This document shows positions 42,561-43,929 of a stretch of DNA of 64,000 nt, in pieces. A program made the translations under genes and the position numbers. Source of the stretch: an uncultured Clostridia bacterium (lineage in GTDB: Bacteria; Bacillota; Clostridia; TANB77; CAG-508). The stretch lies in contig CALXMM010000005.1 of assembly GCA_944389475.1 (NCBI GenBank), positions 735-64,734 on the forward strand, given 5' to 3'. Every line of letters starts with the position of its first letter. The first letter of the stretch is position 1. The notes beneath the pieces are model-generated. The model was not told the DNA's origin, ran no database searches, and was given only the letters and a program-made list of their open reading frames with translations.

Positions 42561-43472
42561 ATGGAAGAAACAATTGAATTTTATGGTTTTAGAGGAAATA
42601 TTATCTTTCCAAATCAAGTTACATTATTTAGTTTGGGACTTGAAAATAATTCTAGAGACAAGAATAAAGTATTTACAAATTTCTTTGAAGAATTGAAAAG
42701 TTCAGGAAAAGTTGATTCCGAATATCAAAAAAGAAAATATTATTTGATTTTTATTAATCAATATGATTCAATTATTCAGTGTCAACTAGCCAGAGAAAGA
42801 ATTTTTGATAAGTATGAAATGACTAAAGAAAAAGTAATTGGAACAAAAGATCAAGATTTCCCTTTTATAAATGTTTTTGTTGAGCTCAAAACACAGAAAT
42901 TCTTAATTGAATCAAAAACGACAGTTTTTGATAATTATAATACATGTAGCAATGTTATTCAGAATATAATGAATAAATATCTTAAAAAAGTAGATGCAAC
43001 AATAAATGTAAATCCAATTGTAGAAGAACAGAAATTTTGGAAATTTTTTGAGGGTGATAACGAAGTAAAAAATTTAACTTTCAATTTAGCAGTACCTAAT
43101 TTATTTGATGCAAGTGATGATGCAACAAGGTTTTTAAATGATGCTAGAGATAATGTAGGGGCAAGTAATGTTTCTTTGAATTTTACTAATACAGAAGGAA
43201 AGTTACAACCCAATAAAGAAGGAATAGAATCTTTTGTTAAATATACAAGTGCCGGAGGAGGAACTTGGAATCTAAAATATAAAAATAAAAATGGTGATAC
43301 AAAGAATGTAAGTAGTGAACAAAAAAGTAAGAAAATTAGTATAAAATTTTTAAAAAATGAACTTAATTCTTTGAATAAAGAAAAAATTGAAAGAATAAAA
43401 TACGAGATGCAAAAAATTGAAACAATAGAAAAATTTAGGGAGGAATCAAGTGAAAAAGATAGCGATAATTAG
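42561..43472 (+). CDS. Uncharacterised 303-aa soluble protein (element cargo)
   Basis: GGGAGC RBS and no TM segments. The C-terminus is coiled-coil-like and Lys/Glu-rich. I recognised no catalytic motif. Confidence 0.6.
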   Translation: MEETIEFYGFRGNIIFPNQVTLFSLGLENNSRDKNKVFTNFFEELKSSGKVDSEYQKRKYYLIFINQYDSIIQCQLARERIFDKYEMTKEKVIGTKDQDFPFINVFVELKTQKFLIESKTTVFDNYNTCSNVIQNIMNKYLKKVDATINVNPIVEEQKFWKFFEGDNEVKNLTFNLAVPNLFDASDDATRFLNDARDNVGASNVSLNFTNTEGKLQPNKEGIESFVKYTSAGGGTWNLKYKNKNGDTKNVSSEQKSKKISIKFLKNELNSLNKEKIERIKYEMQKIETIEKFREESSEKDSDN

Positions 43473-43929
43473 TATAATTATTATTTTGAGTTTTTTTACA
43501 GCTTCTACTTCAAAATCATTTATTGTTAATGCAGAGTTATTAATTCCATTTCTTTTTACAATATTAGGATTGACTGTAACTGCCTATACTTTTATTTATG
43601 CTCCAATTTCTGAAATTTTGAAAAAAGAAAGTATGAAGAATGATGAGTCTAAGCAAAAATTACAAAAGTTATTGAATAGTTTTGAAGAAGATATGATGCT
43701 GATATTTTTCTTAACAATTGCAATAGTTGTTGTGGATTTTATGAAATATATGGATATACCTTTAGTAAAAAATGTGCTAAATCTTGATTTAGGAATACTA
43801 AAAATCATATCTTTAAAAGAGTATATTTTCAATTTTATTATATCTATAAGTGCATGTTTTTCTTTCTATTCTTTATATGATTTAATGCAAGCTACATTTA
43901 AAATATTGAGGAAGAGCTTTGATAAATAG
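43450..43929 (+). CDS. Uncharacterised 159-aa membrane protein (about 4 TM), translationally coupled to the 303-aa gene
   Basis: GTG start preceded by GGGAGGA. It overlaps the upstream ORF by 23 nt. Four hydrophobic helices are present. Confidence 0.6.
   Translation: MKKIAIISIIIILSFFTASTSKSFIVNAELLIPFLFTILGLTVTAYTFIYAPISEILKKESMKNDESKQKLQKLLNSFEEDMMLIFFLTIAIVVVDFMKYMDIPLVKNVLNLDLGILKIISLKEYIFNFIISISACFSFYSLYDLMQATFKILRKSFDK

What the first reader, a model, noticed from the sequence alone, without database searches (positions are those of the whole stretch)
42561..43929. An uncharacterised two-gene module (303-aa soluble protein plus 4-TM protein) is the best candidate for a new defence-type system
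A 303-aa protein sits immediately downstream of the R-M pair, inside the mobile element. I could recognise no motif in it. It has a Lys/Glu-rich coiled-coil tail. It is translationally coupled to a 159-aa protein with four hydrophobic helices (23-nt overlap, GGGAGGA RBS, GTG start). A soluble sensor-like protein plus a small membrane effector matches the layout of several abortive-infection systems. Location next to an R-M system on an integrative element is the classic defence-island context. The gene order (soluble then TM) and the sizes do not match any named two-gene system I can identify by eye.
Basis: inference. Interest (0 to 1): 0.75.

Follow-up and report, generated by a model that had tools for sequence, protein, structure and literature searches.

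The report
Remote RexAB-like phage exclusion gene pair
The two genes are real and always travel together, and they look like a very distant, uncatalogued cousin of phage lambda's classic RexA/RexB anti-phage pair (a DNA-binding sensor plus a small membrane protein), parked next to a restriction system on a small integrated element in a gut Clostridia genome.

Summary
Observation confirmed. A 303-aa soluble protein (A, 42561-43472) overlaps by 23 nt a 159-aa four-helix membrane protein (B, 43450-43929; GGGAGGA RBS, GTG start). They lie downstream of an NgoPII-type R-M pair on a ~6.1-kb integrative element.

Pfam, NCBIfam, PHROGs and PADLOC recognise neither protein. The pair is nevertheless a strict unit:
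- A is followed by B in 38/38 related loci and 8/8 distant ones.
- A and B co-diverge (r=0.94).
- Both are under purifying selection (dN/dS 0.09-0.26).

The A family is large, about 1029 clusters at 50% identity. It lies beside Type I, II and III R-M, Abi_2 and ApeA/KAP genes on mobile elements. It also occurs in prophage lysogeny modules next to cI-like repressors, and at an integrase-att junction in E. coli.

A's confident AlphaFold model best matches RdgC in the PDB. It shares three top viral structural neighbours with a lambda RexA model, and RexA is a published RdgC-like fold. Gene order, sizes and the four-helix partner match lambda RexA (279 aa) and RexB (144 aa).

No sequence or profile homology to RexA or RexB is detectable.

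Verdict: a remote RexAB-like exclusion/abortive-infection module. It is a new variant of a known kind, not a layout without precedent. Function is inferred, not shown.

The parts
42561..43472 (+). Gene A: 303-aa soluble protein with a predicted two-domain RexA/RdgC-type fold; proposed DNA-binding sensor
   Evidence: ORF. 90 homologous clusters and 1029 representative clusters in the deep profile search. AlphaFold2 pLDDT 86.9, pTM 0.85. Best PDB match RdgC 2owl, E 5e-4. Shares three top viral-library structural neighbours with a lambda RexA model. dN/dS 0.13-0.26.
43450..43929 (+). Gene B: 159-aa membrane protein with four hydrophobic helices; proposed RexB-like membrane effector
   Evidence: ORF with GTG start. 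114 homologous clusters. Four hydrophobic helices with the same spacing in all partners. Follows A in 38/38 related and 8/8 distant loci. dN/dS 0.09-0.19.
43438..43472 (+). Translational-coupling junction: RBS GGGAGGA (43438-43444), GTG start of B (43450) and the 23-nt A/B overlap
   Evidence: Read directly from the sequence. Overlaps or gaps of 1-12 nt occur at this junction in all related loci.
42406..42560 (+). 155-nt intergenic region upstream of A, with an AT-rich hairpin plus T-run (42500-42547). It separates A/B from the methylase gene and may hold A/B's own promoter.
   Evidence: Inverted repeat I9, 21-nt arms, 86% complementary. Promoter-like sites at 42457-42485 and 42494-42521, but promoter-like matches in the region are no more frequent than in shuffles, so no promoter is shown.
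40539..42405 (+). Context: NgoPII-type Type II restriction enzyme (40539-41414) and C5 cytosine methyltransferase (41425-42405)
   Evidence: Pfam PF09521 E 5e-112 and PF00145 E 9e-103. PADLOC REase_II and MTase_II.
40198..46305 (.). Context: ~6.1-kb integrative element carrying R-M, A/B and a recombinase, inserted in an M14 peptidase gene. Candidate ends are the 17-nt inverted repeat 40198-40214 / 46289-46305.
   Evidence: Inverted repeat I21, 94% complementary. Split M14 ORFs. The same split Peptidase_M14 target is seen in L001-L006.
44592..46226 (+). Context: large serine recombinase broken into four ORFs by three frameshifts (probable pseudogene)
   Evidence: ORFs 44592-44822, 44797-45072, 45008-45568 and 45546-46226 lie in successive frames. 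Homologous elements also have fragmented Resolvase/Recombinase genes.

Best explanation
A and B form a remote RexAB-like two-component phage-exclusion (abortive-infection type) module carried as cargo of a small integrative element.

Proposed mechanism, by analogy with lambda RexAB and P. putida RexABpp:
1. The two proteins are made in fixed proportion through translational coupling.
2. A is a soluble protein with a RexA/RdgC-type two-domain fold. It probably acts as a dimeric, sequence-nonspecific DNA clamp. It senses a phage-specific DNA or protein-DNA replication/recombination intermediate, for example DNA that escaped the neighbouring R-M system.
3. A changes conformation and engages B, possibly through its conserved C-terminal helix.
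4. B, a four-helix inner-membrane protein, oligomerises into a channel or otherwise compromises the membrane. This collapses membrane potential and ATP, arrests growth and aborts the infection.

Shown here: the genes, their strict pairing and co-divergence, purifying selection, B's four hydrophobic helices, A's confident predicted fold and its structural neighbours, and the genomic contexts.

Inferred: DNA binding, the A-B interaction, channel formation, the trigger, and the anti-phage phenotype.
For: 1. Architecture. The order is soluble ~300 aa then four-helix ~160 aa, tightly coupled, exactly as lambda rexA (279 aa) then rexB (144 aa, four TM) (PMC11077077).
3. Transitive structural link. 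The viral-library hits at ranks 2-4 for A are A0A8S5S8L2, A0A8S5QGP5 and A0A8S5MSR5 (E ~1e-12, prob 1.00). These are three of the five best hits for a lambda RexA model (E 8e-5 to 3e-3, prob 0.87-1.00).
4. Domain order. A has an N-terminal antiparallel beta-sheet domain, then a beta/alpha domain, then a C-terminal helix. This parallels RexA's globular domain, dimerization domain and alpha8 helix.
5. Obligate pairing. B follows A in 38/38 near and 8/8 distant loci. Identities co-vary with r=0.94.
6. Rex-like genomic placement in distant members. In a Clostridial prophage the order is cI-like repressor, ImmA, exonuclease, A, B, integrase (L048; on a viral contig). The pair is close to the repressor in a temperate Vibrio virus. 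It lies between int and att of an e14-like E. coli prophage.
7. Defence neighbourhood of the near family. Neighbours are Type I, II and III R-M, Abi_2, and ApeA plus KAP NTPase.
Against: - There is no sequence-level relationship. Pfam RexA (PF15969) and RexB (PF15968) do not hit A, B or 73 diverse A relatives.
- Profile comparisons are all non-significant. hhalign of the A profile against a 25-sequence RexA profile gives prob 0.5%, E 0.12. B profiles against RexB give prob 0.15-0.7%. The A profile against E. coli RdgC gives prob 0.05%.
- The RexA crystal structure (8TWQ) is not among the top 50 PDB matches of A's model.
- TM-scores to RdgC are low (0.25).
- The RexA model used for the transitive test is only moderate (pLDDT 67), and its bridging hits have TM 0.29-0.43.
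- B has a long charged TM2-TM3 loop that RexB lacks.
- In the window the pair is not next to a repressor, and the near family is absent from viral contigs.
- No experiment exists for any member of this family.
Confidence: 0.6

Rival explanations
1. A distinct defence system that shares only an ancient RdgC-like DNA-binding fold with RexA. A would itself be the effector, clamping or blocking invading DNA replication or recombination. B would be a membrane sensor or anchor (Kiwa-like logic, or reversed roles as in mycobacteriophage Butters gp30/gp31). It might be functionally coupled to the adjacent R-M systems.
For: A matches RdgC better than any RexA entry in the PDB search. There is no profile similarity to RexA or RexB. 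The family is about 30 times larger than canonical RexA: 1029 representative clusters at 50% identity against 36 clusters at 90% identity. The near family sits repeatedly just downstream of restriction or Abi genes rather than next to repressors. Literature shows that Rex-like pairs can have reversed roles (PMC12894663).
Against: The shared top structural neighbours with RexA. Identical order, sizes and four-helix partner. Lysogeny-module placement in distant members. No match to Kiwa or any other PADLOC model. In Kiwa, from my own knowledge, the membrane gene comes first.
Confidence: 0.2
2. A mobile-element maintenance module rather than anti-phage defence. It could be an addiction-type or toxin-antitoxin-like pair, with B as membrane toxin and A as its controller, that stabilises the island and its R-M cargo. 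Alternatively it could modulate a lysogeny/excision switch, as RexA does in lambda.
For: The pair is nearly always on mobile elements with serine recombinases, Mob_Pre relaxases, RepL or prophage integrases. It persists in elements whose recombinase has decayed. Lambda RexA modulates the CI/Cro switch independently of RexB (PMC11077077).
Against: The pair also occurs beside a chromosomal Type I R-M with no element recombinase other than the hsdS shufflon integrase (L013-L017). The window's element has no repressor/switch genes. No toxin-antitoxin family signal was found in Pfam or PADLOC. Stabilisation and defence are not mutually exclusive.
Confidence: 0.12
3. Core DNA-processing function of the integrative element, such as a recombination directionality or anti-RecA factor (RdgC-like) with a membrane tether, or an entry-exclusion function for mobilisation.
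For: RdgC is a recombination modulator and is the top PDB fold match. The pair is adjacent to recombinase and relaxase genes in several loci.
Against: The same pair occurs in unrelated backbones: tailed prophage, a PM2-like Vibrio virus, elements carrying a Mob_Pre relaxase and a serine recombinase, and a chromosomal R-M island. Within one backbone it sits in the variable cargo region next to swapped R-M cassettes (window compared with L001). Elements with decayed recombinases keep A/B intact under purifying selection.
Confidence: 0.05

Closest known systems
Phage lambda RexA/RexB exclusion system (Pfam PF15969 / PF15968; RexA structure PDB 8TWQ)
   Same: A two-gene operon in the order soluble protein then membrane protein. 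Sizes are 279/144 aa against 303/159 aa. The partner has four TM helices. A's predicted fold has the same domain order (beta-sheet globular domain, beta/alpha domain, C-terminal helix). A and RexA share top structural neighbours, and A's best PDB match is RdgC, which is RexA's published relative. Distant family members sit next to cI-like repressors in prophages.
   Different: No detectable sequence or profile similarity for either protein. 8TWQ is not in A's top 50 PDB matches. B has a long charged loop between TM2 and TM3. The window's subfamily is on non-phage integrative elements beside R-M systems, not in an immunity region. The family is far larger and taxonomically broader (Clostridia, Bacilli, Gammaproteobacteria).
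Pseudomonas putida prophage P1 RexABpp (PP_5643/PP_5644; Sci Rep 2026, PMC12894663)
   Same: A Rex-type pair found only by remote methods. It has a DNA-binding RexA-like protein plus a four-TM partner. Both genes are required for defence, and RexA overexpression triggers RexB-dependent membrane damage. This is the best experimental precedent for the mechanism proposed here.
   Different: RexApp is detectable by HHpred against RexA (98% probability), whereas A is not detectable by hhalign. I could not compare sequences directly because the P. putida genome is not in the collections available.
Actinobacteriophage Rex-like pairs (Sbash gp30/31, CarolAnn gp44/43, Butters gp30/31)
   Same: Prophage-expressed pairs of a cytoplasmic protein and a membrane protein that exclude heterotypic phages. 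They are grouped with Rex largely by architecture and function.
   Different: The RexA-like proteins are larger (337-372 aa). Butters has reversed roles. These were not compared here.
RdgC recombination-associated DNA-binding protein (PDB 2OWL/2OWY; Pfam PF04381)
   Same: Best PDB fold match of A (E 5e-4, prob 0.89). Similar length (303 aa). A ring- or clamp-type nonspecific DNA binder is a plausible model for A.
   Different: TM-score is only 0.25. No profile similarity (hhalign prob 0.05%). RdgC is a stand-alone housekeeping gene with no membrane partner.
Kiwa (KwaA four-TM plus KwaB DUF4868)
   Same: A two-gene defence system pairing a small multi-TM protein with a ~300-aa DNA-binding protein (my own knowledge).
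   Different: The gene order is reversed (membrane gene first). No PADLOC or Pfam match to KwaA/KwaB or DUF4868 for A, B or relatives.

Membership tests
RexAB (lambda-type) | RexA-family sequence membership (Pfam PF15969 or profile homology to RexA) | tested here: not met
   There was no PF15969 hit for A, for the E. coli and Vibrio versions, or for 73 diverse relatives, while lambda RexA scores E 1e-97. hhalign of A3 against the RexA family profile A4 gives prob 0.5%, E 0.12.
RexAB (lambda-type) | RexB-family sequence membership (Pfam PF15968) | tested here: not met
   There was no PF15968 hit for B or its relatives, while lambda RexB scores E 8.5e-92. hhalign of A2 and A6 against RexB gives prob 0.15-0.7%.
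RexAB (lambda-type) | RexA two-domain fold (split beta-sheet globular domain plus beta/alpha dimerization domain, RdgC-like) | tested here: inconclusive
   A's model has the same domain order. Its top PDB hit is RdgC. It shares three top viral-library neighbours with a RexA model. However, 8TWQ is not in its top 50 PDB hits, and no direct pairwise superposition could be run.
RexAB (lambda-type) | Adjacent, co-oriented genes in the order soluble A then membrane B | tested here: met
   Window: 23-nt overlap. The same order holds in 38/38 near and 8/8 distant loci.
RexAB (lambda-type) | B partner is a small (~16 kDa) inner-membrane protein with four TM helices | tested here: met
   Hydropathy analysis finds four helices in B and in 11 of the 12 family partner proteins examined (L036_B shows three at the threshold used). 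Lengths are 154-176 aa. Lambda RexB also shows four. This is a prediction only.
RexAB (lambda-type) | Located in a prophage immunity region and expressed with the cI-type repressor | tested here: not met
   In the window the pair is downstream of an R-M pair on a non-phage integrative element, with no repressor. The near family is absent from IMG/VR. The feature is met in distant members L048 and L041. Expression was not tested.
RexAB (lambda-type) | Both genes required for phage exclusion; A activates B, causing membrane depolarisation and growth arrest | not testable with these tools
   This needs phage challenge and membrane-potential assays.
RexAB (lambda-type) | A binds DNA non-specifically as a dimer | not testable with these tools
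   This needs EMSA and SEC, or multimer modelling.
RdgC | Pfam PF04381 or profile homology to RdgC | tested here: not met
   No Pfam hit. hhalign of A3 against E. coli RdgC gives prob 0.05%.
RdgC | RdgC three-domain horseshoe fold forming a ring dimer | tested here: inconclusive
   Foldseek gives E 5e-4, prob 0.89, but TM 0.25 and rmsd 15 A over 350 columns. The oligomeric state was not modelled.
Kiwa | KwaA (TM) followed by KwaB (DUF4868) | tested here: not met
   No PADLOC KwaA/KwaB match and no Pfam DUF4868 match. The gene order is opposite.

The most novel reading that the evidence does not exclude
A/B is the founding example of a large, previously unrecognised defence family (about 1000 clusters at 50% identity, from gut Clostridia to E. 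coli and Vibrio viruses). On this reading it shares only an ancient RdgC-type DNA clamp with RexA and works differently. For example, A might directly clamp or block invading DNA at the membrane with B as sensor or anchor, acting as a second line behind the R-M and Abi genes it so often follows.
Probability: 0.2. Interest if true: 0.75.

Novelty: new variant of a known kind. Interest (0 to 1): 0.55.

Why it matters
RexAB is the oldest known phage-exclusion system (Benzer's rII work), yet its trigger and mechanism are still unresolved. A 2026 paper counts only five Rex-like systems described.

If this pair is a genuine remote relative, Rex-type modules would not be a curiosity of a few temperate phages. 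They would form a large family invisible to sequence searches. That family is spread across Firmicutes and Proteobacteria, is common in human-gut MAGs, and is often stacked directly behind restriction-modification and Abi genes on small mobile elements.

This would have several consequences:
- It gives defence-annotation tools (PADLOC, DefenseFinder, Pfam) two new families to add.
- It provides many diverse sequences for finding conserved functional residues, for example the invariant PN..A and GGG.W motifs and the KIETIEKF helix in A, and the TAYTFIY and LYDL motifs in B.
- It offers a tractable E. coli member (WP_021552250 and WP_001180570, at the e14/icd site in 32 of 5426 complete genomes) for direct experiments.

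Tried and rejected
- Family libraries. Pfam, NCBIfam, PHROGs and PADLOC on A and B gave nothing above threshold. Pfam and PADLOC on 73 diverse A relatives and on the E. coli, Vibrio and other distant pairs gave nothing.
- Sequence search of PDB chains with the A1 and A3 profiles gave nothing.
- Direct homology tests were all non-significant: hhalign of A3 and A1 against lambda RexA, A3 against a 25-sequence RexA profile, A2 and A6 against RexB, and A3 against E. coli RdgC. I therefore do not file the pair as a sequence member of RexA, RexB or RdgC.
- Rfam on 39000-47500 gave no family for the GC-rich patch.
- Core mobile-element function was rejected, because the pair occurs on unrelated backbones and in the variable cargo region.
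- The idea that the downstream RNA-like element belongs to the module was rejected, because it is conserved only in elements with the same recombinase backbone.
- A genome-collection scan with the broad profile A3 failed because no conserved stretch was available. A1 was used instead.
- A viral-contig scan with A1 found no relative.
- tblastn of the L048-type A against the phage collection found nothing.
- Literature searches for the E. coli accessions, 'RdgC-like' and 'Rex-like' found no prior description of this family.
- Promoter scan: promoter-like sites are no more frequent than in shuffled sequence, so no promoter is claimed.

Full report
**Observation**

The two ORFs are exactly as described. 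A is 42561-43472 (+, ATG, 303 aa). B is 43450-43929 (+, GTG, 159 aa). They overlap by 23 nt, with GGGAGGA at 43438-43444.

Upstream are an NgoPII-family restriction enzyme (40539-41414) and a C5 methyltransferase (41425-42405). A 155-nt spacer with an AT-rich hairpin and T-run (42500-42547) separates them from A.

The whole block lies in a ~6.1-kb insert that splits an M14 peptidase gene (minus-strand pieces 39732-40190 and 46261-46917). The insert is flanked by a 17-nt inverted repeat (40198-40214 / 46289-46305). It ends in a serine recombinase gene broken by three frameshifts. The window is 100% identical over this gene to a gut MAG contig of an uncultured Clostridia bacterium (L025).

**Are they real genes and a real pair?**

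Yes. A has 90 homologous clusters and B has 114. All are unnamed and lack Pfam domains.

In every related locus I fetched, B follows A on the same strand, either overlapping or 1-5 nt away (38 of 38).

A deep HMM search with the A profile finds 1029 representative clusters at 50% identity, 587 of them with E<=1e-10, and almost all are 280-300 aa. I looked at eight distant contexts at 19-30% identity to A. Seven have a called gene of 154-176 aa downstream, overlapping or at most 12 nt away. The eighth (L050) has an uncalled B-like ORF.

These partners show four hydrophobic helices with the same spacing. The B profile significantly detects two of them (E ~1e-10).

Across 20 loci, the pairwise identities of A and of B correlate with r=0.94. 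dN/dS is 0.13-0.26 for A and 0.09-0.19 for B.

**What do the libraries say?**

Nothing. Pfam, NCBIfam, PHROGs and PADLOC gave no hit for A or B. The same holds for 73 diverse A relatives and for the distant pairs. PDB sequence searches were also empty.

**Context**

The near family rides on mobile elements and defence islands.
- The same element backbone and the same M14 target carry a DpnII-type R-M in place of the NgoPII one (L001-L006).
- Other contexts place A/B directly downstream of a Type I R-M with an hsdS shufflon (L013-L017), downstream of Abi_2 (L018-L021), and downstream of KAP NTPase plus ApeA (L030).
- It lies beside a MutH/Sau3AI-like nuclease (L026) and after RepL plus an NgoPII R-M (L027).
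- It also occurs in elements carrying a Mob_Pre relaxase and a serine recombinase, with or without a Type III R-M (L007-L012, L033).
- Some contexts show no known defence gene (L032, L035).
- The near family is absent from IMG/VR.

Distant members sit in prophages.
- In a complete Clostridial chromosome the order is Cro-like HTH | cI-like HTH, ImmA peptidase, exonuclease, A, B, serine integrase (L048). This is confirmed on a viral contig.
- In a 13-kb temperate Vibrio virus the pair is close to the repressor.
- In E. coli the pair lies between int and the icd attachment site of an e14-like prophage. It is present in 32 of 5426 complete genomes and is annotated 'hypothetical protein'.

**Fold**

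A's AlphaFold2 model is confident (pLDDT 86.9, pTM 0.85). It has an N-terminal antiparallel beta-sheet domain (to about residue 144), a beta/alpha domain (147-263) and a conserved C-terminal helix.

The best PDB match is E. coli RdgC (2owl: E 5e-4, prob 0.89, but TM 0.25). The best viral-library matches are uncharacterised gut-phage proteins (TM up to 0.66), followed by phage entries annotated 'Exonuclease' and 'Recombination-associated protein'.

The literature search led to the lambda RexA structure paper (PMC11077077). RexA has a split beta-sheet globular domain, a beta/alpha dimerization domain and a C-terminal helix. Its closest structural relative is RdgC 2OWL. RexB is a 16-kDa four-TM protein encoded just downstream.

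**Direct tests of the Rex hypothesis**

At sequence level the tests fail.
- Pfam RexA and RexB hit only the lambda proteins.
- hhalign of the A profiles against lambda RexA is not significant (prob 0.06-0.15%).
- hhalign of the A profile against a 25-sequence RexA family profile gives a colinear 115-column alignment that is not significant (prob 0.5%, E 0.12).
- B against RexB is also not significant.

At structure level there is a transitive link. I modelled lambda RexA (pLDDT 67) and searched the viral library. Three of its five best hits are the proteins ranked 2-4 for A: A0A8S5S8L2, A0A8S5MSR5 and A0A8S5QGP5. Their scores are E 8e-5 to 3e-3 against RexA and ~1e-12 against A.

I could not superpose A on 8TWQ directly, and 8TWQ is not in A's top 50 PDB hits.

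**Interpretation**

Several features together make a remote RexAB-like exclusion module the best explanation (confidence about 0.6):
- the layout;
- the protein sizes;
- the four-helix partner;
- translational coupling (Rex activity is stoichiometry-sensitive according to PMC12894663);
- an RdgC/RexA-type fold;
- lysogeny-module placement in distant members;
- a strong defence-island association in the near family.

Because every sequence-based membership test failed, I do not call A/B members of the RexA or RexB families. I call them a new, large, uncatalogued variant of the Rex kind.

The main rival (about 0.2) is a distinct system that shares only the RdgC-type clamp and uses B differently. 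The others are element addiction or switch modulation (about 0.12) and core element DNA processing (about 0.05).

The statement that no named two-gene system has this order and these sizes is wrong. The downstream 'RNA-like element' is a conserved structured patch of the element backbone and is not part of the module.

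Noticed in passing
window 43999-44075 (within 43990-44095): A GC-rich patch in an AT-rich spacer folds into an outer CCAGC...GCTGG stem enclosing two hairpins (MFE -26.3 kcal/mol, z -2.65). It is conserved, with some pair-preserving changes, in elements that share the same recombinase backbone (L001, L002, L005, weakly L029). It is absent from other A/B contexts. No Rfam family matches. It could be a small RNA, a regulatory leader for the recombinase region, or a protein-binding site.
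   Followed up: partly
window 44592-46226; also L001-L006 at about 10050-11560: The large serine recombinase of the element is split into four ORFs by three frameshifts in the window. It is similarly fragmented in related elements from different metagenomes. The element appears immobilised, yet its R-M and A/B cargo remain intact.
   Followed up: partly
window 39732-40190 and 46261-46917 (minus strand); L001-L006: The same M14 peptidase gene is the insertion target in at least three different chromosomal neighbourhoods (L001/L006, L002-L004, L005); in L005 its product also carries PG-binding and LysM domains. The gene is left permanently split where the recombinase has decayed. I wondered whether this resembles developmentally excised 'skin-like' elements in sporulation genes, but did not test it.
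   Followed up: no
window 40539-42405 compared with L001 5336-7880: Within one element backbone the R-M cassette is swapped. The window has NgoPII R plus C5 M, while L001 has two methyltransferases (Pfam MethyltransfD12 and N6_N4_Mtase) plus DpnII. A/B stays in place at 76% identity, so there is a modular cargo slot upstream of A/B.
   Followed up: partly
window 44351-44509: A small 52-aa ORF just upstream of the recombinase is conserved in L001-L005 (visible in alignment A5). It may be a recombination directionality factor or regulator.
   Followed up: no
L015-L017, about 1258-4634: The Type I R-M next to A/B carries multiple hsdS genes or half-genes around a tyrosine integrase, and the arrangement differs between samples. 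This looks like a phase-variable specificity shufflon.
   Followed up: no
L007-L012 (e.g. L007 6439-7835): A HAD hydrolase plus Exo_endo_phos gene pair is always divergently adjacent to A/B in the elements that carry a Mob_Pre relaxase and a serine recombinase. A HAD gene also precedes A/B in L035. The role is unknown and it may be another cargo module.
   Followed up: no
L048 6999-7934: In the Clostridial prophage, an RNase_T/BRCT-domain exonuclease gene sits between the ImmA peptidase and A, in the same operon-like run as the repressor.
   Followed up: no
PLSDB record CP099174.1 (L042): This 1.31-Mb 'plasmid' record of E. coli carries core chromosomal genes (icd, purB, phoPQ, mnmA). It looks like a mislabelled chromosome fragment.
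   Followed up: no
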